Positions 11,753 to 59,467 of a DNA stretch of 64,000 nucleotides are shown here, one piece after another. Each line of letters begins with the position of its first letter. Within the stretch, counting starts at the first letter, position 1. The position numbers and the translations under genes were made by a program. Origin of the DNA: Bacilli bacterium (GTDB taxonomy: Bacteria; Bacillota_I; Bacilli_A; ML615J-28; CAG-698); contig JBFXJT010000007.1 in assembly GCA_050174575.1 (NCBI GenBank), positions 6,648 to 70,647 of the forward strand, read 5' to 3'. Under the pieces are notes generated by a model. It was not told the DNA's origin and did no database searches. It saw nothing but the letters and a program-made list of their open reading frames with translations.

Positions 11753-13435
11753 TCACTTTCTAATTTTTATATGGTCTACTAAATTGTCATGAAAAACATA
11801 CTTATTGTCAATTGGCATATCACCCCATCGACTTATACACTGATCATAAATTTCTTCATAAACGTAAATCGACAAATCTTCATTTAATTTTACATCAATT
11901 TTTTGTTGTTCATTCAAAATATTGGAAATATAAATAATAAAATTTCCGGAAAAAAGTCTTACTATTTCGCCTTGTCTTAAATCATAATAAACATGAACTA
12001 AGTTGTGGCACTGGATAAAAGCTCCTGTTTCAACGGATTTAATCGTTGAAGAAAGGTATATTGTCTCTAAATCAAAACAATTTGCGAAAGCGGAAGCTTT
12101 TATTGTTTCACAACCTTCACCAAAAACAATTTCCAATAGACAATCTACATTGTCAAAAGCTCCAGTACTGATCTCCTTTGATGAAATGGTTAACTTATTA
12201 ATTGATGCATAATTAAAAGTTTTTGTTAGAACGACTTTTGCAGCAATATTTGCTTGATTTATTTTTGCATTAAAAAAGGCAAATTCAGAAATAGTATCAA
12301 CATGATTCCCGATAATCAAATTATCAAACGTTCGGCCAGCACATGAATATTCGCCAATTTTGTAAAAAACTTGAAAATCAGTTATGTCTGCATTACTTAG
12401 AATTAAATGATTTTGATTGTTTTCATTTACTACCAAAGAACCTTCTATTACATTATAAATGCTTTCATTACTAACTGTCATATTTTTTAGAGGGCAGCCA
12501 ATAAAGGCTTCTGCATTAACAAGAAGATTAGTTCCAAAAAAAACATTATTTAAATTAGAACAATTGAAAAAGGCATTTCTACCAAAAACGATATTTTGGT
12601 TGGGGAAGTTAATTTCTAAAAGATTAATACAGTTACTAAAGGCATTATCACCTATTTCTTTCATATTTGAAGTAAAATCAATTTTCGTTAATCCTGAATT
12701 TTCAAAAGCTTGGCTATTGATTATTTCAAGTGTTTCAGGAAAATTGATACTCGTTAATGAAGTACATCCAAAAAAGCAATTCCTACCAATTTCAGTTAAT
12801 TGTAAGGGAAGAGTAACGTTTGTTAACTGTAAACAATCATAGAATAAGTAGTCAGGAATAGTTGTGAAATTGTTTAAAAAAGTTACAGATGATATATCCG
12901 TGCTAGCGAAAGAAGAATCGGAAACTTCTACATCTTCTAGAACAATATTGCCTGATAATTTTGTACTCTGATATGCTCCAATCCCAATAAACTTAATATT
13001 TTCTGGGAGATTAATGACCGCTTCATTGTCATAAAACGCTTCTTGGCCTATATATTCAACACTATCAGCAATATTTACATTAAGCAGACCACTTTCAAAA
13101 AAAGCTTGATCTTCAATGATTTTTAGTCCCTCTTCGATAGTAAGGGATTCAATCGGTAAATTAACATCAGCCCCCCAGATACCATGATTCATCTTAAAAG
13201 CTTCACTTTTGATGGTAGAGACTTGTTTATTATTATGATAGGCAGGGATAAGGATATCTTTTACATAAAGCCCCGAAAATCCAGTCACTGCATAAGTATC
13301 ATCATCTAGGAGTTCAAACTCTAAATAATCATGGGGATTGGTACTTTTACTATAGCGCCCACCACATGCTGTCAACATTGTCAACAAAAAAAATATACTA
13401 ATAAAAAATGTAAAAAATAAAGTGACTTTCTTCAT
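11753..13435 (-). CDS. BspA-type leucine-rich-repeat (LRR_5) surface lipoprotein
   Basis: Signal peptide with lipobox LLTMLTAC. Tandem ~22-aa repeats of the form I...AF..C..L..I.FP... Confidence 0.75.
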   Translation of the reverse strand: MKKVTLFFTFFISIFFLLTMLTACGGRYSKSTNPHDYLEFELLDDDTYAVTGFSGLYVKDILIPAYHNNKQVSTIKSEAFKMNHGIWGADVNLPIESLTIEEGLKIIEDQAFFESGLLNVNIADSVEYIGQEAFYDNEAVINLPENIKFIGIGAYQSTKLSGNIVLEDVEVSDSSFASTDISSVTFLNNFTTIPDYLFYDCLQLTNVTLPLQLTEIGRNCFFGCTSLTSINFPETLEIINSQAFENSGLTKIDFTSNMKEIGDNAFSNCINLLEINFPNQNIVFGRNAFFNCSNLNNVFFGTNLLVNAEAFIGCPLKNMTVSNESIYNVIEGSLVVNENNQNHLILSNADITDFQVFYKIGEYSCAGRTFDNLIIGNHVDTISEFAFFNAKINQANIAAKVVLTKTFNYASINKLTISSKEISTGAFDNVDCLLEIVFGEGCETIKASAFANCFDLETIYLSSTIKSVETGAFIQCHNLVHVYYDLRQGEIVRLFSGNFIIYISNILNEQQKIDVKLNEDLSIYVYEEIYDQCISRWGDMPIDNKYVFHDNLVDHIKIRK

Positions 13436-13731: not shown

Positions 13732-14469
13732 CTATTCATTCAATTGCTTTCTTCTAATTAATTCTAAAACAGCAAAAGATGCTACATCTTCGGCATATTT
13801 CTTTTGACCGAATCCAGCATCATACCCCAATTCTTTTGCAAGTTCATGAGTTATTCTGGCTCCTCCGGCAATCAAAAGGACTTGATCTCTAATCCCTTCC
13901 GCTTCTAACATTTCCACAAGTTCTAATAAATTTTTCAAATGAACGTCTTTTTGTGTTACTGTTTGGCTAACAAGCAAAACATCCGCTTTAACTTCTTTAG
14001 CTTTTTTCACAAAAGCTTCATTGGAAACTTGACTACCTAAATTGTAAGTTTTGATGTTTTTATAGCGTTCTAAACCATAATGACCAGCAAAACCCTTCAT
14101 GTTCATAATGGCATCGATCCCAACAGTATGGGCATCAGTTCCTGTAGAAGCACCAATAAAAACAATTTCTCTTTTCAATTCGTTTTCAATCATTATTTCT
14201 ATTTCTTCTTTTGTATAAGTCGGAGTTGTGACATCACTAACATGAATAAGATTAGGATCAACAGAAAAAGGAATGGATCCATAAATAACATAAAAGCTAA
14301 AATTATCGCCCAAGGTCTCAGCTGCAACAACTTGAGGATCAATCAAACCCATTTGTTTTGCAAGAGACTTAGCGCATTCAATTCCTAGCGTGTTATTAAC
14401 AAGCGGTAAAGAAAAACTTATTTGGACTTTACCATCATTTGATGTATCGCCATAAGGTTTAATCAACAT
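13732..14469 (-). CDS. kamE: Lysine 5,6-aminomutase beta subunit (B12-binding)
   Basis: 245 aa. B12-binding Rossmann domain with DxHxxG motif (GTDAHTVGIDAI). Overlaps kamD. Confidence 0.85.
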   Translation of the reverse strand: MLIKPYGDTSNDGKVQISFSLPLVNNTLGIECAKSLAKQMGLIDPQVVAAETLGDNFSFYVIYGSIPFSVDPNLIHVSDVTTPTYTKEEIEIMIENELKREIVFIGASTGTDAHTVGIDAIMNMKGFAGHYGLERYKNIKTYNLGSQVSNEAFVKKAKEVKADVLLVSQTVTQKDVHLKNLLELVEMLEAEGIRDQVLLIAGGARITHELAKELGYDAGFGQKKYAEDVASFAVLELIRRKQLNE

Positions 14470-16015
14470 GTTCTTCCTCCTCTAAAGCATCCATAACAAC
14501 ATTAACATAATTGTGGTGCTTTAAAAAAACGCCTTCTAATCCTTTTCCTCCAGTAAAACTGCGTTTGATGTCCGCAAATACGCCGTTTTCTAAAGCTTTG
14601 AATAGCGACATTTGTTCGATTTCTTGCAATAATTGATGAGCTTCGTTCAAAACATTTTTAGCTCTTTTTGCCATGATTCCATTTTGTTTATATTCAATTT
14701 CATCACCGAATGACTTCATCGAATTAGCAATCAATTTTGCATTTTCAATTGCTAAGTAGCGATCAGACATAAATGGTGTATGAATGGCTTCCGTCATCAT
14801 CCCCAACAGATGAATTGATTGATTAGAGATGATTGTTGCCATATTGAACATTGTGTTTTGCATATAAGCTCGGAAAATATTCCCAGTTATATGTTTTGTT
14901 GGTGGCATATATTTTAAAGGAGCCTCAGGGAAAATTTCTCTAGCCATTTGAGCTTGGGCTAATTCATACAAAAAACTATTTTCAATTGTCGGATCAATTT
15001 CAAAAGCATGGCCTAAACCCATTAAATTTTTTGGGAGGTGAGCTTTTATGGCGAATTGTTCATTAATAAATTGTGAAGCTAAAACGGTATGAGCTTGCGA
15101 ATAGGCATCAGCTGTTGTTAAGTAATTATCTTCACCGGTATTAATGATGATTCCCGCTAAAGCATTAATCCTTCTTGAAAAATTTTGATCAATTAGCGTT
15201 CTTTGCATATTAATATCACGGAAAATTATGCCATAAAGACTATCATTGAGTAAAACGTCGAGCCTTTCCAAAGCAGCCATTGCGGCGATTTCCGGCATAC
15301 ATAAACCCGATGCATAATTGACTAATTTTATATACCTTTTTTCCTGATGAGAAACCTGATCAAGTGCTTCACGCATAATGCGAAAGTTTTCTTGGGTGGC
15401 ATAAGTTCCGCCAAATCCCTCAGTTGTCGCCCCAAAAGGAACAAAATCTAATAAAGACTGCCCTGTTGACCTAATAACGGCAATAATATCAGCACCAGCC
15501 TTGGCAGCAGCTTTAGCTTGGATGACATCTTCATAGATGTTACCCGTTGCTACAATAACATAAATTTCAGTTGCTTTAGGTGGATATAGAGTAAACAAAG
15601 CTGCTCTTTTTTGTTTGTTTTGTTTAATTTTTTCTATTTGTTTTTGAACATATGGCTGTAAACTTAATTTAATATTTTTAGGAGATGCTAACGGAAAATC
15701 CGTTAATTTCATATCACCATTTAGGACGCTAGCCACCAAATCATTTAATGTTTTTTTAGTAGCAATCAAGGCACTCCCTAGATAACTGGAAACACCCAAA
15801 GTCAAATCGCCACTTTCTTTAACTTGGTTGACTAGTACATTAGGGATTGGCACGTCGAAGTCATCGACGCCATCAATTCCTAATAATCGAACAACAGTCC
15901 GCTCAATGGCAACGGTCGTGCGTTCGTTGATAAAGTTCTGAACATCATCAGCAATATGCAAGGCACATTGGCGACATTCATTGATAATATTTTGATCTAA
16001 ATGGAATTTATTCAT
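14459..16015 (-). CDS. kamD: Lysine 5,6-aminomutase alpha subunit
   Basis: 518 aa, the size and composition of the KamD/OraE-type TIM-barrel alpha subunit. Sits between the embedded P-loop gene and kamE. Confidence 0.8.
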   Translation of the reverse strand: MNKFHLDQNIINECRQCALHIADDVQNFINERTTVAIERTVVRLLGIDGVDDFDVPIPNVLVNQVKESGDLTLGVSSYLGSALIATKKTLNDLVASVLNGDMKLTDFPLASPKNIKLSLQPYVQKQIEKIKQNKQKRAALFTLYPPKATEIYVIVATGNIYEDVIQAKAAAKAGADIIAVIRSTGQSLLDFVPFGATTEGFGGTYATQENFRIMREALDQVSHQEKRYIKLVNYASGLCMPEIAAMAALERLDVLLNDSLYGIIFRDINMQRTLIDQNFSRRINALAGIIINTGEDNYLTTADAYSQAHTVLASQFINEQFAIKAHLPKNLMGLGHAFEIDPTIENSFLYELAQAQMAREIFPEAPLKYMPPTKHITGNIFRAYMQNTMFNMATIISNQSIHLLGMMTEAIHTPFMSDRYLAIENAKLIANSMKSFGDEIEYKQNGIMAKRAKNVLNEAHQLLQEIEQMSLFKALENGVFADIKRSFTGGKGLEGVFLKHHNYVNVVMDALEEEEHVD

Positions 16016-16016
16016 A

Positions 16017-17000
16017 TTAATTACTCTTTTCTAAAACATCGTATATCGGTAAAGTTATTCTATCTTCTATTTTATTACGAAAATTTGCTAAAGAAATGAC
16101 ATTTCCAGTAGGAGAGAATGGATTAAAAGTTAAGGCAACAAGATTTATTGGTTGAAGTACAAAAATTTTTTGTTTTAAAAGCAACAAATGTTTTAACAAA
16201 ATATCATCAGCTAATAAATGTGTAGGACTATTAACGATTAAATCACAATTTAAGTTTTGACGATTGTCAATTAAGGCTTTTAAAAATGATGGACTAACCG
16301 CTTTAGGAACATATACATAACGAATATTTTGCTTAATTTGGGAAATTATGTCTGCTCCACAATCTAGTGTTGTCGTTCTTTTTAAGAATGACATTTTATT
16401 TTGATCATCAATTAAAACAATGTCATCCCATTCTTTTAAGTCAAGTGTCCCATTATATTTTGGCAAATTGAATAATTTGATGGTGTTTAAAGTATGTAGA
16501 ACAATTTTGTCAAGTTGATAGGAAAAACTAGAACCAACACAAAAAATCGTGGCATCACAAATTTGTGCAAGGGTTGTTCGGGAAAAAGCTCCATCAATCA
16601 ATATTTTTTGACATTCATATTCTTTTAATTTATCAATAATCATCCGCATTGATTGAATTGTCGATGGTCCCCCAACAAGACAGTTGCCGGCTTTGGTAAT
16701 TTTGATTAACACAATGGGACCTAATGCGGTCACAATCTTTGTTTCTTCGATAATGTCATATTGGGCTTCACATTCATCCAAACAATTTTTAGCGGTTGCA
16801 ACAATGGTGTTTGTGGAAGTAAAAATCCTTGGTTTCGGCAAGAAAGTGATTTGATCAATTTTTTCGCCATCAAGGCCAATAGAAGAAATACCCGTTGTAA
16901 TCGATTGATATTGTGTTAACAAAAAATTTAAAACTGTTGTTTTCCCTGCATTTTTTGCATTGCCAACTGTACAAATTACTTGATAATCTTCAAGTAATGA
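16017..17000 (-). CDS. CbiA/CobQ-like P-loop ATPase embedded in the kam operon (candidate aminomutase chaperone/reactivase); start codon unresolved
   Basis: The first canonical start (TTG, complement of 16920-16922) lies downstream of a Walker-A-like segment VICTVGNAKNAGKTTVLNF. That segment is in frame and stop-free back into the kamA 3' end, and the only in-frame initiator candidate there is ATT. Coordinates include the upstream extension. Confidence 0.55.
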   Translation of the reverse strand, partial: SLLEDYQVICTVGNAKNAGKTTVLNFLLTQYQSITTGISSIGLDGEKIDQITFLPKPRIFTSTNTIVATAKNCLDECEAQYDIIEETKIVTALGPIVLIKITKAGNCLVGGPSTIQSMRMIIDKLKEYECQKILIDGAFSRTTLAQICDATIFCVGSSFSYQLDKIVLHTLNTIKLFNLPKYNGTLDLKEWDDIVLIDDQNKMSFLKRTTTLDCGADIISQIKQNIRYVYVPKAVSPSFLKALIDNRQNLNCDLIVNSPTHLLADDILLKHLLLLKQKIFVLQPINLVALTFNPFSPTGNVISLANFRNKIEDRITLPIYDVLEKSN

Positions 17001-17002
17001 AG

Positions 17003-18259
17003 TTAATGCTTTAATGCTCGTTCTCGTCTTTCTAAATGTTTGGGTTCGATTGCTCTTTGTTTGCCGGCAAGTAATCCACTAACACCTTCAGCTTCTTTAC
17101 TAGTACTGCAATTTGGATTTTCATGATAATCAGTTGGTTCATTGTAAGTGGTAATAACACCTTCATAATTTCTCAAAACAACTTTTCCCGGTGCTTGTGA
17201 AATTACATAGTTAGGCATAACGGGGATTTTACCTCCACCACCAGGAGCATCAACGACAAATGTCGGAACGCATAACCCACTAATGTGACCACGTAAACCT
17301 TCGATAATTTCAATACCTTTACTAATTGGTGTTCGGAAATGCTCAATACCAAGAGAAAGATCACATTGGTATAAATAGTATGGGCGAACACGCATTTGCA
17401 CTAAGCACGTGCATAATTTTCGCATTGTATCGACACAGTCATTAACGCCTCTTAAAAGAACACTTTGATTTCCCAAAGGAATTCCGGCATCAGCCATTTT
17501 CGCAATAGCCTTGGCACTTTCTTCAGTTATTTCATCATAATGGTTAAAATGAGTATTTACCCAAATAGGATGATATTTTTTTAACATTGAAACAAGTTCG
17601 TCCGTAATTCTTTGAGGCATAACAACGGGTGTCCTTGTGCCAATGCGGATAATTTCTACATGGTCAATTGCTCTTAAACGAGAAATGATTGATTCCAATT
17701 TCGCATCACTCATTAATAAAGCATCACCACCGGATAACAAGACATCTCGAACAGCAGGTGTTTTGCGAATATACTCAATTGCTTGTTCAATGCGATCACT
17801 TGGTAAATCATGGTCTGTTTGTCCTGCAAAACGTCTTCTTGTACAATGACGGCAATACATACTACACATATCCGTAATCAAAAACAAAACACGGTCAGGA
17901 TAACGATGTGTTAATCCAGGTACAGGTGAATCCTTATCTTCATCAAGCGGATCAACAAGATCGTTCTTGCCAATGATCATTTCATTAATGCTCGGGATAG
18001 CCTGTTTTCTAATTGGGCAATCAACGTTGTCTGGATCGATTAAACACAAAAAATAAGGTGTAATGGCCATCCGAAAACGTGATAGTACTTCAGTAATCTG
18101 TTGTTCTTCTTCGCTCGTTAAATTGATATATTTTTTAAGTTGCAAGACATCGGTAATCCGGTTTCGAACCTGCCAATGCCAGTCTTGCCAATCTGTTGAA
18201 GAGACATTAGGAAAATACTTTTGTTTTCTTTCTAAATATCTTTCATTTACTATTAACAT
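17003..18259 (-). CDS. kamA: L-lysine 2,3-aminomutase (radical SAM)
   Basis: 418 aa. Radical-SAM cluster motif CSMYCRHCTRRR (CxxxCxxC) with KamA-like flanks. Confidence 0.92.
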   Translation of the reverse strand: MLIVNERYLERKQKYFPNVSSTDWQDWHWQVRNRITDVLQLKKYINLTSEEEQQITEVLSRFRMAITPYFLCLIDPDNVDCPIRKQAIPSINEMIIGKNDLVDPLDEDKDSPVPGLTHRYPDRVLFLITDMCSMYCRHCTRRRFAGQTDHDLPSDRIEQAIEYIRKTPAVRDVLLSGGDALLMSDAKLESIISRLRAIDHVEIIRIGTRTPVVMPQRITDELVSMLKKYHPIWVNTHFNHYDEITEESAKAIAKMADAGIPLGNQSVLLRGVNDCVDTMRKLCTCLVQMRVRPYYLYQCDLSLGIEHFRTPISKGIEIIEGLRGHISGLCVPTFVVDAPGGGGKIPVMPNYVISQAPGKVVLRNYEGVITTYNEPTDYHENPNCSTSKEAEGVSGLLAGKQRAIEPKHLERRERALKH

Positions 18260-18262
18260 AAT

Positions 18263-19303
18263 TTACTCCTTCGGTTGATATCTTTTTACAAATAGATCAT
18301 AAAGCGGTTTTGATTCCCTTAAAAGGCTCAAGGTTAAATCGGCGTGTCCCGGAGTATAACCGTTACCGATAATCATGGTAGCTTCACTGGCAATGCCTTC
18401 AGCACCTAAAGCAGCTTTTGTGAAAGAAGTTGCCATACTGAAGAAATAAACAATACCGCTTGGTTTGGTTGCTAAAATCGATGTCATTTCTGTATTTGGA
18501 ACATTAACGACATTAATTGTGACATCAACTTGTTGATTATTATTGACTCGCATGATTTCTTGATAGACTGCCATCGGATCTCTAGCATCTGCTACAATGA
18601 TTTCGTCACAGACTCCGAGTGATTGCAAATCTTCAAGTTTATTGGTATTACTTATTAGCGCTATGATTTTGCCATTTGGACCGGCGTTCTTGTGAGCTTG
18701 ATAGCAGCATAATACACCACTTTTACCAGCTGCCCCTAGCACCAAAACAGTATTGTTAGGTTTAACCAATTTTTCAACTTGTGCAGGTGCACCAGCAACA
18801 TCTAAAGCAGATAATACTAAATGTTCACTTAAGTCATTGGGGATTTTCGCATAAATGCCCGTAGCAAATAAGATTGCTTCTGCTTCAACATCAACTTGAT
18901 CTTTATGCAAATGAATTTGTTTGATCGCTTTTATTTTTAATGGTGTTAGTGATAAAGAAACTAAAGTCACAATTTTATCACCAATTTTTAAATCGCATTT
19001 TAAGTCTTTTCCTATTTGTTTAATAACACCTAAAAGCATTCCCCCACTACCTGTTACAGGGTTTTGCATTTTTCCGCGTTTATTGACAATATCCATAATC
19101 ATCGTTTTCATGGCTTCCACATCACTATTAGTTGCTTGTTTAATTTGGGTAAAAGATGCGGAATCGATATTTAATGTTTTTACATCAATTAAAATTTCAT
19201 TGTCTTGGCAAATCATCGTATTATCTAATTGATCTGCAGCTTGAGGGAGAACACCTACCGGACTAATGACACGGTGAGTTCCATAAGGGCATGGCTTTTT
19301 CAT
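18263..19303 (-). CDS. kdd: L-erythro-3,5-diaminohexanoate dehydrogenase
   Basis: 346 aa NAD(P)-dependent dehydrogenase in the canonical position between kamA and kce. Rossmann GAAGKSG. Confidence 0.7.
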   Translation of the reverse strand: MKKPCPYGTHRVISPVGVLPQAADQLDNTMICQDNEILIDVKTLNIDSASFTQIKQATNSDVEAMKTMIMDIVNKRGKMQNPVTGSGGMLLGVIKQIGKDLKCDLKIGDKIVTLVSLSLTPLKIKAIKQIHLHKDQVDVEAEAILFATGIYAKIPNDLSEHLVLSALDVAGAPAQVEKLVKPNNTVLVLGAAGKSGVLCCYQAHKNAGPNGKIIALISNTNKLEDLQSLGVCDEIIVADARDPMAVYQEIMRVNNNQQVDVTINVVNVPNTEMTSILATKPSGIVYFFSMATSFTKAALGAEGIASEATMIIGNGYTPGHADLTLSLLRESKPLYDLFVKRYQPKE

Positions 19304-20127
19304 ATTTTCTTCTCCATTCTTAATATTTTTCTAGTTTCTTCGGGATTGGCAATTTCCCGATTGTATTTTTTTGCAATTTGAACGACTTTCGCTACTAAAG
19401 CGGCATTCGATGGAGCTAATACTCCTTTGTCAATGTAAATATTGTCTTCTAAACCAACGCGAACATGACCACCATGCATAATGGAAAGTTCTGCAAGGGA
19501 AAATTCAAAACGACCGATTCCGGCAACACTATATGTCGCATCATTTGGAATGCTGTCCTTTAAAAACAGAAAATCCCGTTCTTCTCCAGTCATTCCACCG
19601 TTAACTCCTAAAACAAAACTAAAATGGTAGGGTGGATTAATAAAGCCTTTTTTCGCAAGTCTTTGTATCATATCAATATGACCTTTTTCAAAGCATTCAA
19701 GTTCTTTATAAATATGACGACTTTCCAAAACATTGGCAAAATACTTAATATCGTTTTCTGTATTAACAAAAATATCATCACCACCAAAGTTTAATGTTCC
19801 ACAATCAAGCGTCGCCATTTCAGGATTTAGAGTAACCGGACCTAAACGCTCATCACGGCTCATGCCAACGGCTCCTCCAGTTGATACTTGAACGATGACA
19901 TCGGGACATTTAGCTTTGATTGCTGTAATGATTTCTTTAAAACGTTTGGCATCTTGCGTCGGCGTTCCATCATCAAAACGGGCATGCAAGTGAATGATTG
20001 ATGCTTTCGCCAAATAAGCCTGATAAGCACTTTCAGCCATCTCTGAAACAGTATAGGGAACATTGGGATTATGGTCTTTAGTAACTTCCGCACCAGAAAT
20101 AGCACAAGTAATGATTAATTTTTCCAT
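19300..20127 (-). CDS. kce: 3-keto-5-aminohexanoate cleavage enzyme (BKACE/DUF849)
   Basis: ~275 aa TIM-barrel DUF849-type protein. The likely start is the internal [14 protein letters not shown]. Sits between kal and kdd. Confidence 0.7.
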
Positions 20128-20507
20128 GTTTTCCTCTGAAGAGCTTTTGGTACAACACAAGTACCCTTTGCAGAAGCAACCAAAATTGGTTCATCTAAAA
20201 AATCAGCTGCTGAAGGAACAATATTTGGTTTAGCTTCGATTACTTTGTAACATGCAAAAGTCATTTTTCTTGAAGTGTTTCCCACTTCAACAATTTCACC
20301 ATGCACTTCCAAAAAGTCACCAGCATAAACCGGAGCCAAAAAATCTACTTGCTCGTAAGCCCGAAATAATCCTTCATCTCCATCATGGCGAATGAGCAAT
20401 TCTGTCGCAACATCGCCAAATAAAGCTAAGATTCGAGCTCCATCCACAAGATTTCCTCCATAATGGGCATCGCTTAAGGACATTCGTAAACGGATTATTG
20501 TTTTCAT
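20115..20507 (-). CDS. kal: 3-aminobutyryl-CoA ammonia-lyase
   Basis: 130 aa hot-dog-fold protein of the size characteristic of Kal, between the CoA-transferase genes and kce. Confidence 0.65.
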
Positions 20508-21151
20508 ATTGAAACTCCTTTCATTGGCAATACTTGATCAATAATTAAAGTTGCTTCAGTTACAGCGACAACTTCATCAATCGAATAATTAGGATGAACT
20601 TCTAATAGATGTAACCCATCGTCACGAACCTCCATAACGGCCATTTCTGTAACGATTAAGTTAGCTTGTTTATAAGCAGTAAGTGGTAAAACACAACGTT
20701 TTAATATTTTTGATTTTCCATTATTTGTATGTTGCATCGCAATAATAACCTTTTTAGCACCAACAACCAAATCCATGGCACCACCCATTCCCGGAACTTT
20801 CTTTCCTGGAATAATCCATGAAGCAAGGCTACCTTCTTCATCAACTTCAAGAGCACCTAGGACAGTGACATCAACATGACCACCACGAATAAACATAAAG
20901 GAAGTTGCAGAATCAATAAACGATCCTCCCGGCATAATCGTTGCTTTCATTCCTCCGGCATTAACGATATCACTTTGTTCTTCTGTTAATGGGCCAATAC
21001 CAATTATTCCATTTTCTGATTGTAAAATGACATGTTTGGTCGGAGGAATAAAATTTGCCACTAAAGTAGGAGTACCAATACCCAAATTGACAATATCGCC
21101 ATCTTTAAGTTCTAAAGCTATTCGACTAGCAATAATAAACTTTTCGTCCAT
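20504..21151 (-). CDS. atoA: CoA-transferase subunit B (acetoacetate:butyrate/acetate CoA-transferase)
   Basis: 215 aa 3-oxoacid CoA-transferase beta-subunit-like protein. Overlaps both neighbouring genes. Confidence 0.8.
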
Positions 21152-21798
21152 TATTCCACCTCCATAACGATGTAATCAACTAACGGAAAAGGTGTAATGA
21201 CTGCTTCAGGATCTATTTCTTCAAGTTTTTGCTGGCATACAGCAATCACTAATGATGCAGCTGTAGCCATGATTGGATTAAAATTACGCATTGTTTTGCG
21301 ATATGCAAGATTTCCATATCGATCGCAAATCGCTCCACCAATTAAAGCTAAGTCAGCAAATAACGGTTCTTCTAGCAAATAATCAATCCCTTGAACCTGG
21401 ATTACTCTTTTCCCTTCTTGAACAATTGTTTTTAGTCCAGTTGGGGTCAAAACACCACCTAGTCCCGCACCTGCAGCACGGATTTGTTCGACCAATGTCC
21501 CTTGAGGAACTAAAACAACTTCTAGTTTACCTTCTTGCATCAACTTCCCGACAGTTGGATTTGTTCCAATATGGGATGCAATCAATTTTTTAACCCGATT
21601 AGCAACAATCAATTTTCCAACTCCTCGGTCTTCAAATCCTCCGTCATTACAAATGATTGTAAAATCGGTAAAACTTGTTTCTAAAATTAAATCAATTAAG
21701 TAATCAGGACTTCCGTTTGCTAAAAAACCACCAACCATAATCGTCATGCCGGATTTAAGGTGACTTTTAAAATTTTCCTTACAAATAAAACCTCGCAT
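21151..21798 (-). CDS. atoD: CoA-transferase subunit A
   Basis: 215 aa 3-oxoacid CoA-transferase alpha-subunit-like protein (GGF..NGSP...). Confidence 0.8.
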
Positions 21799-22516: not shown

Positions 22517-24157
22517 TTAATCGTTTTGTTTGGTAAGATAGAAATATTTAGTATCCGCTTCAGCCATATGACCAACAATAAAATTATCTACTAAAAACGA
22601 TGCTAAAACGATACTTTTTATTTCACCATTTTGATATTTCTTTTTCATATCATTTGCTTTTAAAATAATGTCGCGATGCAGAGCACAATGTTCATCATAA
22701 TTAGGATAATCTAAATTATACATTACTTTTTCTTCAAAATAAAAATGTTGAGAAATGTGTTTGATGATTTTTTCAATTTGATTGATAATTTTTTCATAGG
22801 GAACATTTGTTTGAAACATAAAAATTAAGTTGTTTCCCAATTCAATAATCTCTCGATGTTGATTATCTATATCAACATTGCCACTACTCCATTCATTATG
22901 CCATTCAAAATACGGTGAAGTTGATAAAGATTCCATGGAGAGGCTCTCTGAAGAGCTTGCCACACGGTTACGTCCCTGTTCTTTTGCACAGTACATTGCA
23001 TCATCCGTACGTTTATACCAACTTCTTAATGACTCGTTAGGAATCATTTGGGCAACACCAAAACTTGCCGTTAATTTGGAAATAATGGGAAACCTGAAAC
23101 CTGCAACAGCAATTCGAATTTTATCAGCAACTTTTACAGCATCTTCCACTTTTGTATCTGGCAATACGATAACAAATTCTTCGCCTCCAAGACGAGACAA
23201 ATAGTCTGTTTTTCTAATTGATGATTTTAACAGTTGGGAAAAACTTACTAAAATATCATCACCAACAGGATGGCCCCAAGTATCATTTACAAATTTAAAA
23301 TGATCAATATCAGCAATAATCATTGATAAAGGCAAAGCTGTATTGTTGGCTTTTTCCATTGTTTCATTAGTAATTTTATGAAAGAAGTGACGATTGTAAA
23401 GTCCGGTAAGGTTATCAATTGTCATTTCAAATTCAAGACGGTTAGCTAATTCTACTGTTTTAGTGATATCGCGTGCAGACGCATAAATAAATCTTCCAAA
23501 TTGTTTTGCCCGCCACTCTAAAAAATGATATTGTCCATTTTTATCTTTATAACGATTAACAAAATTATTAATTTCTTCACCCTTAAGTAAATTTTTCATC
23601 ACTTCTCTTGTAGAAGAAATATCTTCCTCATGCATAAATTCAAAAAAAGTACGGGTTGTTAAATCAGCAAAGTTGGCTCCAACTAGGTTTTCAAAATAAT
23701 CATTTGTTTTAATAAAATGACCATCCATATCTGAGACCACTAAAAGGTCAAGGTTAACATCGATTAATCCTTTTAATAATTCCTCTTCTTTCATGGTTTT
23801 AGTGATATCTTCATAAAAGCAACCAAAGTGATGACAATCAATGGGAAAGATGGTTGCTTTAACCCATGAATGATTAATAGGTAAAAAGCAATTGCATGTT
23901 TTAACCTCTTTTTGATTTACTGCTTTCCTAAAGTTTTGATACCATTCATTGTTAAAATGATTATTAACATTTGCTGTTGATAAATAACTTTTTCCTATTA
24001 ATGCTTCTTTTGGAAGTGGAATAAACCGTTCAAACGCTTCGTTTACTCCGGAAAAATAGTAGTCAACAGGTTCTTGTTTTTCGTTAAAGATAATTTCATG
24101 AAAAGAACAAGGAATAGGAGATTCTTTAAAAAAGTCTAAAAAATTACAGTTATTCAT
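22517..24157 (-). CDS. Sensory diguanylate cyclase: PAS - GGDEF - C-terminal hemerythrin-like domain
   Basis: GGDEF core (RLGGEEF, active-site type) and an N-terminal PAS-like region. The C-terminal ~130 aa carry hemerythrin-type H/E/D ligands (HREIIELGN..., HCALHRDI..., GHMAEAD). It lies 11 nt downstream of speE. Confidence 0.75.
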   Translation of the reverse strand: MNNCNFLDFFKESPIPCSFHEIIFNEKQEPVDYYFSGVNEAFERFIPLPKEALIGKSYLSTANVNNHFNNEWYQNFRKAVNQKEVKTCNCFLPINHSWVKATIFPIDCHHFGCFYEDITKTMKEEELLKGLIDVNLDLLVVSDMDGHFIKTNDYFENLVGANFADLTTRTFFEFMHEEDISSTREVMKNLLKGEEINNFVNRYKDKNGQYHFLEWRAKQFGRFIYASARDITKTVELANRLEFEMTIDNLTGLYNRHFFHKITNETMEKANNTALPLSMIIADIDHFKFVNDTWGHPVGDDILVSFSQLLKSSIRKTDYLSRLGGEEFVIVLPDTKVEDAVKVADKIRIAVAGFRFPIISKLTASFGVAQMIPNESLRSWYKRTDDAMYCAKEQGRNRVASSSESLSMESLSTSPYFEWHNEWSSGNVDIDNQHREIIELGNNLIFMFQTNVPYEKIINQIEKIIKHISQHFYFEEKVMYNLDYPNYDEHCALHRDIILKANDMKKKYQNGEIKSIVLASFLVDNFIVGHMAEADTKYFYLTKQND

Positions 24158-24168
24158 ACTTTGCCCCT

Positions 24169-25011
24169 CTATTTACTTAGTATTTGTTTGACATAATTAG
24201 GCAATACCAAGGAAGCTTGGTGAATAGAAAAATTATAATACTTTAAATTTAATGAGTCAATAAAGGATTGACTTCCCTTAATAATCTGAGGATTTTCTGT
24301 ATTAGAAGCAAATCCAAACAACCAATGGCCGCTTGGATAAGTGGGGATGAATGCTTGGTATACTGTTGCTGTGTGAAAAATCTCTCTAAGTTTTTCATGT
24401 GCTCGTAACATTTCTTGGCGCGTTTTTTCAAAGTAGGGACTTTCGTGCTGATTAACAAGAATTCCATTCGGCTTTAAAATGTTAGCACAATTTTTGTAAA
24501 ATTCACGGCTGAACAATCCTTCGCCTGGTCCTATGGGATCAGTCGAATCGATTACAATTAAATCATAAGTCTCGTGTGTTTGCTTAACAAATGCACTTCC
24601 ATCTGTAAATATTAATTTTACTCGAGGATCCGTTAATTTTGCTGCTGTTTGTGGCAGCAGCTCTTGGCATTTACGAACAACTATTTCATCAATTTCCACC
24701 ATAGTAATGGACTTGATAGTTGGGTATTTGCATAATTCTCGGACTGAACCACCATCACCACCACCAATCACCAATACATTGGAAATGGATGGGTTAACTG
24801 ACAAAGGAAAATGAATCATCATTTCATGATAAATAAATTCGTCTTTTTCGTTGGCCATCATGATGTCATCAAGAGTAAAAAAACGCCCCAATTCATAAGA
24901 ATCATAAAAATCTATTTTTTGGAAGGGGGTCTTTTGAGAAAATAAATGCTCTTTTATTTTTATCGAAAACTGAATATTATCCGTCCAGTATTCACTAAAC
25001 CATTTATCCAT
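24169..25011 (-). CDS. speE: Spermidine synthase (polyamine aminopropyltransferase)
   Basis: 280 aa with VLVIGGGDGGSVRELCKYP, the SpeE signature region. Confidence 0.9.
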   Translation of the reverse strand: MDKWFSEYWTDNIQFSIKIKEHLFSQKTPFQKIDFYDSYELGRFFTLDDIMMANEKDEFIYHEMMIHFPLSVNPSISNVLVIGGGDGGSVRELCKYPTIKSITMVEIDEIVVRKCQELLPQTAAKLTDPRVKLIFTDGSAFVKQTHETYDLIVIDSTDPIGPGEGLFSREFYKNCANILKPNGILVNQHESPYFEKTRQEMLRAHEKLREIFHTATVYQAFIPTYPSGHWLFGFASNTENPQIIKGSQSFIDSLNLKYYNFSIHQASLVLPNYVKQILSK

Positions 25012-25814
25012 TATTTCTCCAACTTCATTCGCGGAATATTCATTCCATAAAATATTTCTGCCATTTCAGCGTTAATTTCTTGTCTGATTTTCGCAACTTC
25101 TTCTTCTGTCAAATCCGTACTTTTGATATTGAATAAATAATTATCTAATATAAGGGTATTTAGCATCATTTTTGTGTGAAAAATATTGGTATAAGCCAAA
25201 TTCACATCGTAAGTTGTATACTTTGATAAAACCTCATCGGGGATAAAGTCTTGAATAGAATCAATGTCATGATCAAGGAAATGCTTTTCACCGTTTAAAT
25301 CTCTAGTAAACCCACGAATGCGATAATCAATTGTAATTATATCCGAGTCAAATTGATTAATTAAGTAATTTAATGTTTTTAATGGAGAAATTTCTCCACA
25401 TGTGGAAACATCAATATCAACTCGAAAAGTACTGATGGGACTGCCGGGATAACTTTCAGGATATGTATGAACAGTCAAATGACTTTTATCTAAATGGCCA
25501 ACAACGGATTCTTTTGCGGGAATTTCGACTTGTTCGTTTTTCCCATGATACTCGGAAATTAAAACAGTAACGCTTGCCCCTTGGGGTTCATAATCTTGGG
25601 TCGCTACGTTTAAAATCTTCGCATCAATCATTTTAGTAACTTCGGTTAAAATCTTTTTTAAGCGGGTACTATTGTACTGCTCATTGATATATTCAATATA
25701 AGCTTTTCTTTCAAGGTCATCTCTAGTATAGCAAATATCATATATATTAAAACTCAATGTTTTTGTAAGATTGTTAAAACCATAAAGTTTTATTGGATGA
25801 CGTTTTCTTACCAT
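25011..25814 (-). CDS. speD: S-adenosylmethionine decarboxylase proenzyme (E. coli SpeD type)
   Basis: 267 aa with HLDKSHLTVHTYPE, the self-processing/pyruvoyl region of class 1B AdoMetDC. Confidence 0.85.
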   Translation of the reverse strand: MVRKRHPIKLYGFNNLTKTLSFNIYDICYTRDDLERKAYIEYINEQYNSTRLKKILTEVTKMIDAKILNVATQDYEPQGASVTVLISEYHGKNEQVEIPAKESVVGHLDKSHLTVHTYPESYPGSPISTFRVDIDVSTCGEISPLKTLNYLINQFDSDIITIDYRIRGFTRDLNGEKHFLDHDIDSIQDFIPDEVLSKYTTYDVNLAYTNIFHTKMMLNTLILDNYLFNIKSTDLTEEEVAKIRQEINAEMAEIFYGMNIPRMKLEK

Positions 25815-53625: not shown

Positions 53626-55254
53626 TTAAATCGTCAATTGTCGGCGGAACATTGGGATCGTGATAGTTAGATTGATTCCTAAAATGACAAGGAGTGCCAA
53701 TAATCCACCAACAGTTAAAGCTAAAAATAAGGAATAGAGAATCGGTACTAATAATAGCACATTCCAGATGATGTTCTGACTTAAAATCAGGCACCTAATA
53801 ATTTTATTTTTCATAAAGGTTTCACTTAACAAAGAAATTGTTCCCCAAAAAGCTGGAATAAAAAAGAGAAATGATGCTCCACTTAAAACAAAACCAGTCA
53901 AAAGTGCTAATAATAAATTTAAGAAAACACCTGCTAGCCCAAATGACCACTTTGTTTCTTCTTTTTTTATGGTTGAATAATAAATAAAGCCAAGACCAAC
54001 AACGATAACTAAGATGATAATTAACGTCGGTAACTCTGTATTATCCATTCGAACATAGGTTAATGACCAAGGAACTTTCCCGAAAAACGCCATTATTTTG
54101 CTGATTACAAAACCAATGAAGCCTAATACAGCAAGCAAACCAACATCAATCCCTAAATATTTGATAAAGGACAAAATCGTTATTTTCTTTTTTAAGATAA
54201 GGTATATAAATAATCCAATAAAGATAACTAATAAAATGATGTGTAGAACAACAGCAAAATTCTCTTTATATGTTACTAAAACATTAGGAAGTAATGTGAA
54301 AAAGATTTGATCTTGCTCACCAACAAAGTAATTGAGATCTTGATATTTATCATTACTTGTAAATTCATCAATCAATGGGACAATTTGTGATCCATAGTGT
54401 TGAATACTACTCAAATTAATGTTTGTATAGTTATCAAGTGGTGTGTGGTAATAGTATAAATTATCTAAGACAGCAAAATTGATACCTGTTTTGCCAATTT
54501 TCAAAAATTCCGTAAAATCCGTATAATTGGGCATGACGGAATAAACGGCAGTTGCTAAACTATATGATACGGGCAAATCGGCATGCTTATAAAAATCGAT
54601 AACTTTTTCGTTATTAGGACTAGTCTCAAACATATAGCTTGGGCCTTTGATTCCCCTTGCTTCCACATTAATCACAAAACTTATTTTATCCATGAGATTT
54701 GCATCTAATACAGCTTGTTTTGCGCCAAGTAAACCAACTTCTTCCGCATCAGTAAGCAAAAAATATAAACTTGTTTTTAAATTTTTGCCAGCATAAAGTC
54801 TTGCTATTTCTAACATTGTTCCAATGGCATAGCCATCATCTGCTGCTCCATATGAACGACCTAATTCTCCATAACGGCCAATATGGCCACGTGAATCATA
54901 ATGACCAACCAATAATAACCCTGTTTCACTTTCTCCAGGAATGGATCCAATAAGATTTTTAACAGGGTAATCTTCATTAACCGCTTCAGCAGTATAATTC
55001 ATTTCATAGACATTTGCTAATCCTAAGAGAGCTTCTAGTTCTTGTTTAAGGTATTTTCTGACTTCTTCATGTGCTTCTTCGTCAAAGACGGAATGGGGTT
55101 CCCGAGAAATCACTTCAATTGTTTGTGCAACATTGACGGCACTGAATTCTTGAACATCTCCACCGGCAATTGGTTGGGGAGTATACAAAACAAAGAAACT
55201 CAAGATTAAGCTAAATAGTAAAACTAATAAAACAACAATAAAACGATGACGCAT
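53626..55254 (-). CDS. M28-family metallopeptidase with C-terminal polytopic membrane domain
   Basis: Signal/TM N-terminus. M28 zinc-ligand regions GHYDSRGHIG and TDAEEVGLLGAK. The C-terminal ~230 aa are multi-TM. Confidence 0.75.
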   Translation of the reverse strand: MRHRFIVVLLVLLFSLILSFFVLYTPQPIAGGDVQEFSAVNVAQTIEVISREPHSVFDEEAHEEVRKYLKQELEALLGLANVYEMNYTAEAVNEDYPVKNLIGSIPGESETGLLLVGHYDSRGHIGRYGELGRSYGAADDGYAIGTMLEIARLYAGKNLKTSLYFLLTDAEEVGLLGAKQAVLDANLMDKISFVINVEARGIKGPSYMFETSPNNEKVIDFYKHADLPVSYSLATAVYSVMPNYTDFTEFLKIGKTGINFAVLDNLYYYHTPLDNYTNINLSSIQHYGSQIVPLIDEFTSNDKYQDLNYFVGEQDQIFFTLLPNVLVTYKENFAVVLHIILLVIFIGLFIYLILKKKITILSFIKYLGIDVGLLAVLGFIGFVISKIMAFFGKVPWSLTYVRMDNTELPTLIIILVIVVGLGFIYYSTIKKEETKWSFGLAGVFLNLLLALLTGFVLSGASFLFFIPAFWGTISLLSETFMKNKIIRCLILSQNIIWNVLLLVPILYSLFLALTVGGLLALLVILGINLTITIPMFRRQLTI

Positions 55255-57028: not shown

Positions 57029-58156
57029 TTATTTATTTTCTAGGGTGCTTGCTAAATCGAAAGTTGCCTTCTGTAAATAAACTTGAGCATTAGTGATTGC
57101 ATCTTCAATCGACTGGCTATAATCTGTTAATGCAATAATTTTTGTTAATCCTTTAGGAATGAGGGCTTTTTGTAGGTTTTCTGTTTGGCCAACAATAGCA
57201 TATAAAGGAATTTGAGCCGATTGAGCGTATTGTGAAATGCCATCAATGACTTTCCCCGTCATACTTTGGGAATCGAATCTTCCTTCCCCAGTTATAATCA
57301 TATCAGCATTTTGAATGATATTTTGAAATTTGATTAATTCTAAAAAAGTATTGATGCCTGATTTGATTTCTGAATTAAGGAATAATTTTGCACTAACAGT
57401 CATTCCTCCAGCTGCTCCAGCTCCAACAAAATTGGCATTAAACTGGAATTTTTTATATAACAAATCAGCCAGTTTCTTCATGCTTTCATCAAGTTTTATG
57501 ATATCTATTTCACTAGCACCTTTTTGTTTGGCATAGACAAAAGCTGCTCCGTTTGGTCCGTAAAGAGGATTCCTTACATCACATAATGTAGTGAATTTTG
57601 TTTTTAAAATTTGGGGATCAACTTTATCAATAAAAATATCGGTAATATCACCCAATGTTTCTCCGACAGGAAGAAAGGTGGTGTTATTTTGATCAACAAA
57701 CAAAACACCCAGACTATTGGCCATTCCCACGCCCATATCATTTGTAGCACTTCCGCCTAAACCCAGGATTATTTTTTTTGCTCCCCTTGCCACTGCATCT
57801 TTGATAATTTCCCCAACCCCATAAGTCGTTGTTAGGCAGGGGTTCTTTTTGTTCTTGACAAGCAACAACCCAGCACTAGCTGCCATTTCTACAATGGCTG
57901 TTTGCTCATCAATCATTCCATAAAAACCATCGATTTCTTCCATGTAAGGGCCTTTTGTTTTTAGAGTGATCTTTTCACCACCAACAGCAGCCAAATAACT
58001 GTCCACAAAACCATCTCCACCATCGGAAACAGGTATTTGAACAATCTTGGCATCAGGAAAAATTTCGTTTAGCGTTTTTCCAATAATAGTGGCGACCTCT
58101 TTACTTGTTAAGCATCCTTTATAAGAATCAGGTATTACAACAATTTTTTTAACCAT
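57029..58156 (-). CDS. Glycerate kinase (GarK/GlxK family)
   Basis: 375 aa. N-terminus MVKKIVVIPDSYKGCLTSKEV is typical of glycerate kinases. Confidence 0.85.
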   Translation of the reverse strand: MVKKIVVIPDSYKGCLTSKEVATIIGKTLNEIFPDAKIVQIPVSDGGDGFVDSYLAAVGGEKITLKTKGPYMEEIDGFYGMIDEQTAIVEMAASAGLLLVKNKKNPCLTTTYGVGEIIKDAVARGAKKIILGLGGSATNDMGVGMANSLGVLFVDQNNTTFLPVGETLGDITDIFIDKVDPQILKTKFTTLCDVRNPLYGPNGAAFVYAKQKGASEIDIIKLDESMKKLADLLYKKFQFNANFVGAGAAGGMTVSAKLFLNSEIKSGINTFLELIKFQNIIQNADMIITGEGRFDSQSMTGKVIDGISQYAQSAQIPLYAIVGQTENLQKALIPKGLTKIIALTDYSQSIEDAITNAQVYLQKATFDLASTLENK

Positions 58157-59411: not shown

Positions 59412-59467
59412 GTTTTTCTCCTTACTTAATAATAAAATTAAGTGAAAACACAATCGATATAATTTTA

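What the first reader, a model, noticed from the sequence alone, without database searches (positions are those of the whole stretch)
16017..17010. P-loop ATPase embedded between kamA and kamD has no canonical start codon upstream of its Walker A motif
The ORF between kamA and kamD carries the Walker-A-like segment VICTVGNAKNAGKTTV (CbiA/CobQ/MinD-like). That segment lies upstream of the first ATG/GTG/TTG of the frame. The frame stays open back into the last ~60 nt of kamA in a different frame, and the only initiator-like codon before the P-loop is ATT. The options are a non-canonical ATT start, a programmed or sequencing frameshift, or an N-terminally decayed gene. By position it is a candidate ATP-dependent chaperone/reactivase for the B12-dependent lysine 5,6-aminomutase, analogous to the MutL/GlmL-type proteins in glutamate-mutase and ornithine-aminomutase operons.
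Basis: partly seen in the sequence, partly recalled or inferred. Interest (0 to 1): 0.7.

Follow-up and report, generated by a model that had tools for sequence, protein, structure and literature searches.

The report
kamB gene starts at conserved ATT
The gene between kamA and kamD is kamB, named by NCBIfam as a repair (reactivase) subunit for the B12-dependent lysine 5,6-aminomutase. It most likely starts at a rare ATT codon inside the end of kamA, a layout kept in dozens of distant bacteria and routinely missed by gene callers.

Summary
On the minus strand, the frame carrying VICTVGNAKNAGKTTV is open from 17078. It has no ATG, GTG or TTG before the TTG at 16922, which lies after the Walker A motif (16964-16935).

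The ORF is KamB (NCBIfam NF052386, 289 bits, cutoff 210). Its predicted fold is a SIMIBI-class P-loop NTPase.

This is not an assembly error or a decayed gene.
- In 103 dereplicated kamA-kamB junctions (locus GC 29-66%, KamB median identity 37%), 58 have no canonical start before the P-loop.
- 83 of the 103 carry ATT or ATC exactly 17 codons before the P-loop glycine. In the window this is 17015-17013, overlapping the kamA end.
- That codon's A sits at a kamA wobble site, yet it is nearly invariant.
- A Shine-Dalgarno-like AGAAGG sits about 8 nt upstream. It is built from kamA Arg codons, with AGG in 40 of 56 cases against 8% background.
- When the start moves, the SD moves with it. When a real ATG appears, both ATH and the SD decay.

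Best model: SD-directed, kamA-coupled initiation at AUU/AUC, giving a 332-aa KamB at a low level. Programmed frameshifting is disfavoured. No direct protein or ribosome data exist. The window's own SD is weak.

The parts
16017..17015 (-). kamB coding sequence as re-defined here: ATT start at 17015-17013, 332 codons, stop TAA at 16019-16017
   Evidence: NCBIfam NF052386 scores 289.5 bits (cutoff 210) over residues 14-327. The start is inferred from conservation.
17013..17015 (-). Proposed initiation codon ATT (codon -17 relative to the P-loop glycine). It overlaps the kamA codons GCA TTA.
   Evidence: ATT or ATC is at this codon in 58/60 and 83/103 dereplicated junctions. Its first base is a kamA wobble position, yet it is A in 58/60, entropy 0.21 bit against 1.5-1.9 elsewhere.
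17022..17029 (-). Degenerate Shine-Dalgarno-like element AGACGAGA inside kamA (codons AGA CGA). Relatives have AGAAGG or AGGAGG here.
   Evidence: The best anti-SD duplex is -3.0 kcal/mol in the window, against a mean of -6.1 in 60 relatives. The 8-mer ends 5-9 nt before codon -17 in 56/60. AGG is used at the second Arg in 40/56 against 8.2% background.
17003..17005 (-). kamA stop codon TAA, 13 nt into the proposed kamB reading frame
   Evidence: The stop lies 41 nt before the P-loop Gly codon in 81/103 junctions.
16935..16964 (-). Walker A / P-loop GNAKNAGKTT
   Evidence: G, N, K, N, A, G, K, T are invariant in 23 aligned homologues. The motif lies upstream of the annotated TTG start.
16974..16976 (-). 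Second in-frame ATT (codon -4). The NCBIfam profile begins here. This is the rival start site.
   Evidence: One search gives the profile start at position 1 = residue 14. No SD lies upstream. Codons -13 to -5 show coding-type conservation.
16920..16922 (-). TTG used as the start in the public annotation (301-aa product lacking the P-loop)
   Evidence: P0001 is identical and is named as a hypothetical protein of a Bacilli bacterium MAG.
17079..17081 (-). In-frame TAG that closes the kamB frame upstream
   Evidence: first open codon is -38.
17003..18259 (-). kamA, lysine 2,3-aminomutase
   Evidence: TIGR03820, 611 bits.
14459..16015 (-). [quoted passage not shown] It starts 1 nt after the kamB stop.
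   Evidence: NF052384, 838 bits.
13732..14469 (-). kamE, lysine 5,6-aminomutase beta (B12-binding) subunit
   Evidence: NF052385, 369 bits.

Best explanation
The ORF is kamB, a SIMIBI-class P-loop NTPase that NCBIfam names as a subunit of the lysine 5,6-aminomutase reactivase.

I propose that its translation starts at the near-cognate codon AUU at 17015-17013, 13 nt before the kamA stop. The product would be a 332-residue protein, (M)KALTSLLEDYQVICTVGNAKNAGKTT....

In the wider clade, a Shine-Dalgarno element written into two conserved Arg codons of kamA (AGA AGG) places the 30S subunit on an AUU or AUC about 8 nt downstream. Ribosomes finishing kamA terminate just past this site, so initiation is probably coupled to kamA translation.

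Near-cognate codons initiate at roughly 1-3% of AUG in E. coli. The arrangement would therefore keep KamB far below KamA and KamDE, as expected for a repair factor.

**Shown here:**
- family membership
- the missing canonical start
- deep conservation of ATT/ATC and of the SD
- co-variation of the SD and the start codon

**Inferred, not shown:**
- that initiation really occurs at this codon with Met
- the coupling to kamA
- the low-expression rationale
- the reactivase activity itself
For: **Identity**
- NF052386 KamB scores 289.5 bits against a cutoff of 210. The gene sits between kamA and kamD/E inside a full lysine-fermentation cluster.

**The start must lie upstream of the TTG**
- The P-loop residues are invariant.

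**The start lies upstream of codon -13**
- Codons after the kamA stop vary at third positions while the amino acids stay the same, SLL[ED][DEN][YF]QVICTVGN.
- They also show a period-3 entropy pattern in the kamB frame.
- Distant homologues with real ATG starts begin 15-20 residues before the Gly.

**Codon -17 is special**
- It is ATT or ATC in 58/60 and 83/103 junctions.
- These junctions span 54 KamB clusters at 60% identity and locus GC of 29-66%.
- The T/C change is synonymous for kamB but swaps Leu and Ser in KamA.
- Its A is a kamA wobble base, yet it is A in 58/60.

**The frame is closed just upstream in several loci**
- In-frame stops occur at -19 (L014, L072) and -18 (L102).

**A Shine-Dalgarno element is present**
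- The 8-mer ends 5-9 nt before codon -17 in 56/60.
- AGG is used in 40/56 cases against 8.2% background.

**Co-variation**
- L018 and L029 lack ATH at -17. They have ATA at -14, and their GGAG has moved 9 nt downstream.
- L135, L159, L164, L166 and L168 have ATG or GTG at -14. They have lost both the ATH and the AGG.

**Known efficiencies**
- AUU/AUC/AUA initiate at about 1-3% of AUG with an N-terminal Met (bioRxiv 10.1101/063800).
- An infC-type AUU junction works by a mix of de novo initiation and reinitiation (PMC3592434).
Against: - There is no direct evidence from proteomics, ribosome profiling or reporters for any member.
- The window's own SD is degenerate (AGA CGA, -3.0 kcal/mol). The SD argument therefore rests on relatives.
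- Codon -14 overlaps the kamA stop as NTA or NTG. It is TTG, GTG or CTG in TGA-stop genomes and ATG in a few lineages, so the start position is evolutionarily labile. It could be -14 in some genomes.
- Conservation at -17 cannot by itself separate 'start codon' from 'conserved Ile that is translated'.
- The sequences are phylogenetically related, so the counts overstate independence.
- The reactivase role rests only on the NCBIfam name. I found no paper in the searchable library.
Confidence: 0.75

Rival explanations
1. Programmed -1 ribosomal frameshifting, or transcriptional slippage, near the end of kamA carries ribosomes from the kamA frame into the kamB frame. KamB would then exist only as a KamA-KamB fusion of about 745 aa.
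For: - The kamB frame is open back into kamA.
- An SD-like element lies about 11 nt upstream of an 'A AAR' motif in the kamA frame, present in 59/81 junctions. From my own knowledge, this resembles the dnaX stimulator spacing.
- Many AT-rich members have A-runs at this position.
Against: - ATH is conserved in 19 junctions that lack 'A AAR'.
- A canonical X XXY YYZ heptamer is present in only 12/81.
- No conserved downstream RNA structure exists. RNAalifold gives an empty consensus for -95 to +25.
- In L087 and L088 a 1-nt shorter spacer changes the frame relation, so a +1 shift would be needed. The ATT and AGAAGG are still kept.
- In-frame stops at -18 or -19 leave only 2-3 codons for a shift.
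- The window itself has no A-run.
- Distant homologues are stand-alone proteins with ATG starts.
Confidence: 0.04
2. Translation starts at the second ATT (16976-16974, codon -4), or at another codion within 5 residues of the P-loop. This would give a protein that begins where the NCBIfam profile begins.
For: - NF052386 profile position 1 aligns to this Ile.
- Codon -4 is ATT, ATC or ATA in 49/60 junctions.
- Some relatives are annotated from GTG at -5 or -1.
Against: - No SD-like element lies upstream of it in the window or in relatives.
- Codons -13 to -5 are conserved as protein with synonymous variation.
- Homologues with true ATG starts begin at -15 to -20.
- The GTG codons at -5 and -1 are ordinary Val codons, present in only a minority.
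- The AF2 model places residues 4-7 in a helix. Mean pLDDT is 84 for residues 1-10.
Confidence: 0.08
3. SD-independent termination-reinitiation. Ribosomes that release KamA at 17005-17003 slide back a few nucleotides and restart at the nearest usable codon. The SD-like sequence would then be only a KamA coding constraint.
For: - The window's SD is weak.
- In the 'GTAKNAGK' subclade a conserved ATT lies 1-2 nt after the kamA stop with no SD.
- Reinitiation at close junctions is documented (PMC3592434).
Against: - The bias toward AGG and the fixed spacing argue for selection on an SD in most lineages.
- The SD moves together with the start in L018 and L029.
- This is a variant of the best explanation rather than a true alternative. 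Both place the start at the ATT.
Confidence: 0.1
4. An assembly or sequencing indel, a decaying pseudogene, or a genuine P-loop-less protein made from TTG at 16922.
For: - The public annotation uses the TTG.
- The window comes from a MAG.
- The window's SD is degenerate.
Against: - The same no-canonical-start layout occurs in independent JGI, ENA, Logan and NCBI assemblies, including three complete genomes.
- The frame is intact with every invariant residue.
- The P-loop codons are perfectly conserved upstream of the TTG.
Confidence: 0.03

Closest known systems
infC (IF3) and pcnB of E. coli; ebpA of Enterococcus faecalis: genes that initiate at AUU/ATT
   Same: - All use a near-cognate AUU start where a canonical codon would be possible.
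- All have an SD upstream.
- infC lies close to the upstream gene's stop, and a mix of de novo initiation and reinitiation is reported there.
- The weak codon limits expression.

Sources: bioRxiv 10.1101/063800, PMC3592434 and PMC4447247.
   Different: - Here the start lies inside the upstream gene, with a 13-nt overlap.
- AUU and AUC alternate freely.
- The SD is built from upstream Arg codons.
- The gene encodes an accessory protein of a metabolic enzyme, not a translation or RNA factor.
- No IF3 feedback logic is evident.
- Nothing has been tested experimentally.
KamB, NCBIfam NF052386 (lysine 5,6-aminomutase reactivase subunit)
   Same: - The score is above the equivalog cutoff.
- The gene sits in the same kamA-kamB-kamD-kamE context.
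- The P-loop is invariant.
   Different: - The profile starts 4 residues before the P-loop Gly. This clade has 13 more N-terminal residues.
- No kamC-like gene lies between kamB and kamD here, or in L001, L032 and L058.
G-protein and ATPase chaperones of B12 enzymes (MeaB for methylmalonyl-CoA mutase; DdrAB/GlmL-type reactivases); comparison from my own knowledge
   Same: It is a nucleotide-binding accessory protein encoded next to an adenosylcobalamin enzyme that undergoes suicide inactivation (PMC3958899).
   Different: - No sequence match to any PDB chain was found.
- No actin/Hsp70-type ATPase, the fold I recall for GlmL/DdrA, appeared among the 60 listed hits.
dnaX-type -1 programmed frameshift
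   Same: There is an SD-like element upstream of an A-rich stretch, and an overlapping downstream frame.
   Different: - No slippery heptamer is conserved.
- No conserved stimulatory structure exists.
- The frame relation varies between lineages.

Membership tests
KamB (NCBIfam NF052386) | Whole-protein HMM score above the curated equivalog cutoff | tested here: met
   289.5 bits against a cutoff of 210. Profile positions 1-326 align to residues 14-327.
KamB (NCBIfam NF052386) | Encoded in a lysine-fermentation cluster next to kamD/kamE | tested here: met
   kal, kce, kdd, kamA, kamD and kamE all score above their equivalog cutoffs in one co-directional cluster.
KamB (NCBIfam NF052386) | Reactivates inactivated lysine 5,6-aminomutase | not testable with these tools
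   Only the family name supports this. No paper was found in the library.
SIMIBI-class P-loop NTPases (MinD/CbiA/MobB/SRP/G3E) | Walker A GxxxxGK[ST] and the class fold | tested here: met
Genes with a conserved near-cognate (AUU-type) initiation codon | No canonical start available upstream of essential residues in the open frame | tested here: met
   Shown for the window. It holds for 58/103 junctions.
Genes with a conserved near-cognate (AUU-type) initiation codon | The near-cognate codon is conserved at one position across orthologues | tested here: met
   ATT or ATC at codon -17 in 83/103 junctions. The base is constrained against kamA wobble freedom.
Genes with a conserved near-cognate (AUU-type) initiation codon | Ribosome-binding site at functional spacing | tested here: inconclusive
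   Met in 56/60 relatives. The window itself has only AGACGAGA at -3.0 kcal/mol.
Genes with a conserved near-cognate (AUU-type) initiation codon | Protein N-terminus or initiating ribosomes mapped to that codon | not testable with these tools
   No proteomic or ribosome-profiling data are available.
Programmed -1 ribosomal frameshift sites | Conserved slippery heptamer X XXY YYZ in the upstream frame | tested here: not met
   Present in 12/81 junctions and absent from the window.
Programmed -1 ribosomal frameshift sites | Conserved downstream stimulatory RNA structure | tested here: not met
   The RNAalifold consensus is unstructured for -95 to +25. The mean single-sequence z-score is -0.76.
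GlmL/MutL-type (actin/Hsp70-fold) mutase reactivases | Actin/Hsp70-type ATPase fold (that this is the GlmL/MutL fold is my recollection) | tested here: not met

The most novel reading that the evidence does not exclude
The weak AUU/AUC start is itself the selected feature, not a tolerated defect.

In most sampled lineages of this KamB clade (43 of 54 clusters at 60% identity), kamB is held on a near-cognate codon. ATG, GTG or TTG is never seen at codon -17. This is so even though shortening KamA by three codons is tolerated, as in L102 and L087/88.

KamB output would then be a fixed small fraction of kamA translation. It could respond to initiation fidelity (IF3 level, growth state), which would make this an infC-like translational control applied to a B12-enzyme repair factor.
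Probability: 0.3. Interest if true: 0.7.

Novelty: new member of a known kind. Interest (0 to 1): 0.55.

Why it matters
**Annotation.** 38 of 143 database cluster representatives of this KamB clade are called without their P-loop. Most of the others are called from arbitrary internal Val or Leu codons. The NCBIfam profile also starts late. Anyone expressing 'KamB' from these annotations to stabilise lysine 5,6-aminomutase would clone a dead, truncated protein. The enzyme is of biocatalytic interest and inactivates itself (PMC3958899).

**Biology.** This adds a deeply conserved family, across locus GC of 29-66%, to the very short list of bacterial genes that start at AUU or AUC. It also provides natural 'mutants'. 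These are lineages where the start moved, where the start became ATG, or where the SD was relocated. Together they make start-codon selection and operon stoichiometry directly testable.

Tried and rejected
- **Pfam scan of KamB:** no family.
- **PDB sequence search with the KamB profile:** nothing meaningful.
- **Literature searches** for KamB or KamC with aminomutase, and for reactivase: no papers. Chang & Frey 2000 is not held.
- **Metagenome scan with the single window protein:** no close relatives. It was repeated with the alignment.
- **AFDB Foldseek library:** unavailable.
- **Search for a KamC-like gene in the window:** I scanned 21 window ORFs with NCBIfam, including every ORF of 380-550 aa. 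No further Kam-type hit beyond the known cluster genes appeared. I did not confirm that a KamC model exists in the library.
- **Conserved RNA structure around the junction:** none.
- **My first 'A AAR' count used a wrong offset**. It was corrected.
- **My first upstream-stop classifier was overwritten by the third frame.** It was replaced by a longest-ORF version.
- **TTG at codon -23 in L087 and L088** (the 'MKEG...' proteins) was considered as a start and rejected. It arises from the kamA codons CTT GAA and lies upstream of the SD.
Full report
**What is in the window**

All features lie on the minus strand in one tight cluster.
- CoA-transferase subunits A and B
- kal (20115-20507)
- kce (19300-20160)
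- kdd (18263-19303)
- kamA (17003-18259)
- the ORF in question
- kamD (14459-16015)
- kamE (13732-14469)

Each scores above its NCBIfam cutoff. The window is 32-37% GC. The public protein identical to the TTG-initiated ORF comes from a 'Bacilli bacterium' MAG, where it is annotated as a 301-aa hypothetical protein.

**Checking the observation**

kamA ends with TAA at 17005-17003. The frame that encodes VICTVGNAKNAGKTTV opens at 17078, after a TAG at 17081-17079. It contains no ATG, GTG or TTG until the TTG at 16922-16920, which lies after the Walker A motif at 16964-16935.

Three in-frame ATT codons precede the P-loop: 17075-17073, 17015-17013 and 16976-16974.

In one AT-rich sequence, 38 codons without a canonical start would not be remarkable on its own. 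What matters is what lies in that stretch and whether the layout recurs.

**What the ORF is**

Extended to 17015, the ORF matches the NCBIfam equivalog NF052386, 'lysine 5,6-aminomutase reactivase subunit KamB'. It scores 289.5 bits against a cutoff of 210. It has no Pfam hit and no PDB sequence relative.

'MinD/CbiA-like' is therefore right at class level. No actin/Hsp70-type ATPase, the fold I recall for GlmL/MutL, is among the 60 listed hits. G, N, K, N, A, G, K and T of the P-loop are invariant in the alignment. A protein that starts at the TTG would lack them.

The reactivase function rests only on the NCBIfam name. I found no paper on KamB in the searchable library. Suicide inactivation of recombinant KamDE is documented (PMC3958899).

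**Relatives show the same gap**

Protein hits have wildly inconsistent called N-termini. Of 143 cluster representatives:
- 38 lack the P-loop
- 19 start within 2 residues of the glycine
- the rest start anywhere from 3 to more than 18 residues upstream

I fetched DNA for the closest relatives. I then fetched 80 genome loci and 80 metagenome loci.

After 90% dereplication, 103 junctions remain. Their locus GC is 29-66%. KamB pairwise identity is 25-88%, with a median of 37%. They form 54 clusters at 60% identity.

58 of the 103 have no ATG, GTG or TTG anywhere in the open frame before the P-loop glycine. 73 have none at or upstream of codon -8. Where canonical codons do occur, they are scattered: Leu TTG at -10 or -11, and Val GTG at -5 or -1.

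This excludes a sequencing error or a decaying gene in the window.

**Where translation must begin**

In the four closest lineages, the codons after the kamA stop differ at third positions. The peptide SLL[E/D][D/E/N][Y/F]QVICTVGN is nevertheless kept. Across 60 junctions, the kamB-frame third positions from -38 nt onward have entropies of 1.6-1.9 bits, with lower first and second positions. This stretch is therefore translated.

More distant homologues with real ATG starts begin 15-20 residues before the glycine.

In-frame stops close the frame at codon -19 in L014 and L072, and at -18 in L102. The start must therefore lie in a window of a few codons around -17.

**Codon -17**

Codon -17 is ATT or ATC in 58/60 junctions of the main geometric class, and in 83/103 overall. 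In the window it is ATT at 17015-17013.

Its first base is the wobble base of a variable KamA codon (Thr, Ser, Ala, Lys and others). That base is still A in 58/60, even in GC-rich genomes. Its entropy is 0.21 bit, against 1.5-1.9 at ordinary kamA wobble sites.

The T/C alternation is silent in kamB but changes Leu to Ser in KamA. NTG or ATA at this position would create a stop in the kamA frame. L102 shows exactly that: ATA, with kamA ending 9 nt earlier. KamA therefore tolerates the truncation, yet ATG is never seen at -17.

**A Shine-Dalgarno element written in kamA codons**

The best anti-SD match (AGAAGG, AGGAGG or GGAGA) ends 5-9 nt before codon -17 in 56/60 junctions. The mean is -6.1 kcal/mol. 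The second Arg codon of the KamA 'RR' motif is AGG in 40/56 cases, against 8.2% of Arg codons in the rest of kamA.

The window is an outlier. It has AGA CGA (17029-17022) at -3.0 kcal/mol.

**Natural co-variation**

- L018 and L029 have TTC and TAT at -17. They carry ATA at -14, overlapping the stop as ATAA. Their GGAG has moved 9 nt downstream, and L029 has even replaced AGAAGG by CGTCGT.
- L135 (ATGA overlap), L159, L164, L166 and L168 have ATG or GTG at -14. They have lost both the ATH at -17 and the AGG (AGAAAG, -1 to -4 kcal/mol).
- L087 and L088 have a 1-nt shorter spacer, so kamA now ends inside ATTAA in the other relative frame. The ATT and AGAAGG are kept.
- A 'GTAKNAGK' subclade has a conserved ATT at -15, 1-2 nt after the kamA stop, with no SD. 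L144 has TTG at that same codon.

**Mechanism**

The best-supported model is SD-directed initiation at AUU or AUC, and rarely AUA, inside the end of kamA. It is probably assisted by ribosomes terminating 13 nt downstream.

In E. coli these codons initiate at about 1-3% of AUG and still insert Met (bioRxiv 10.1101/063800). An infC-type AUU junction uses both de novo initiation and reinitiation (PMC3592434).

A weak start fits an accessory factor needed in small amounts. AAA as the second codon (60/81) is, from my own knowledge, favourable for initiation.

All of this is inference from sequence. No protein-level data exist.

**Rival explanations**

Programmed -1 frameshifting is disfavoured for four reasons.
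- A canonical slippery heptamer occurs in only 12/81 junctions.
- 'A AAR' is absent from 19 junctions that keep ATH.
- No conserved structure is found.
- The relative frame differs in L087 and L088.

A start at the second ATT (16976-16974) matches the first position of the NCBIfam profile. It has no SD, however, and it ignores the conserved upstream peptide.

SD-independent reinitiation may apply to the window and to the GTAK subclade. It still places the start at an ATT.

**Verdict**

This is a new, deeply conserved member of the small class of AUU/AUC-initiated bacterial genes. It also exposes a systematic annotation error. It is not a new kind of mechanism.

Noticed in passing
window 19300-20160 (-): The kce ORF is listed from a TTG, but the NCBIfam KCE profile begins at residue 14. 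The real start is probably the ATG of MEKLIITC, residue 12, at about 20127-20125.
   Followed up: partly
window 13732-21798 (-); L001, L032, L058: The lysine-fermentation cluster runs CoA-transferase A/B, kal, kce, kdd, kamA, kamB, kamD, kamE. No gene lies between kamB and kamD. The kce-kdd-kamA-kamB-kamD-kamE part of this order recurs in Bacilli, Clostridia and Christensenellales MAGs. A KamC-type partner is absent from the tested window ORFs.
   Followed up: partly
database proteins P0001-P0143: 38 of 143 cluster representatives of this KamB clade are called without the P-loop. Called N-termini range from 1 to 48 residues before the glycine. The NCBIfam NF052386 profile itself starts only 4 residues before it.
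   Followed up: yes
L068, L074, L075, L077, L078, L083, L084, L144, L146, L169: A KamB subclade with the P-loop GTAKNAGK has a different junction. A conserved ATT sits at codon -15, 1-2 nt after the kamA stop, with no SD-like element. L144 has TTG at that codon. Some members also have an ATG at -26.
   Followed up: partly
L102 (around locus nt 1450-1500): Codon -17 is ATA, preceded directly by an in-frame TAA. kamA ends 9 nt earlier than usual, at TAG. This is a natural variant showing that the last three KamA codons are dispensable.
   Followed up: yes
window 11753-13435 (-): A 560-aa lipoprotein-like leucine-rich-repeat protein lies just downstream of kamE. It gives only a weak HupY/LrrG adhesin hit.
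   Followed up: no
window 22517-25814 (-): A PAS-GGDEF-hemerythrin diguanylate cyclase (22517-24157) lies next to speE (24169-25011) and an E. coli-type speD (25011-25814).
   Followed up: no
window 53626-55254 and 58149-59453 (-): Two large ORFs of 542 and 434 aa have no NCBIfam hit at E <= 1e-5.
   Followed up: no
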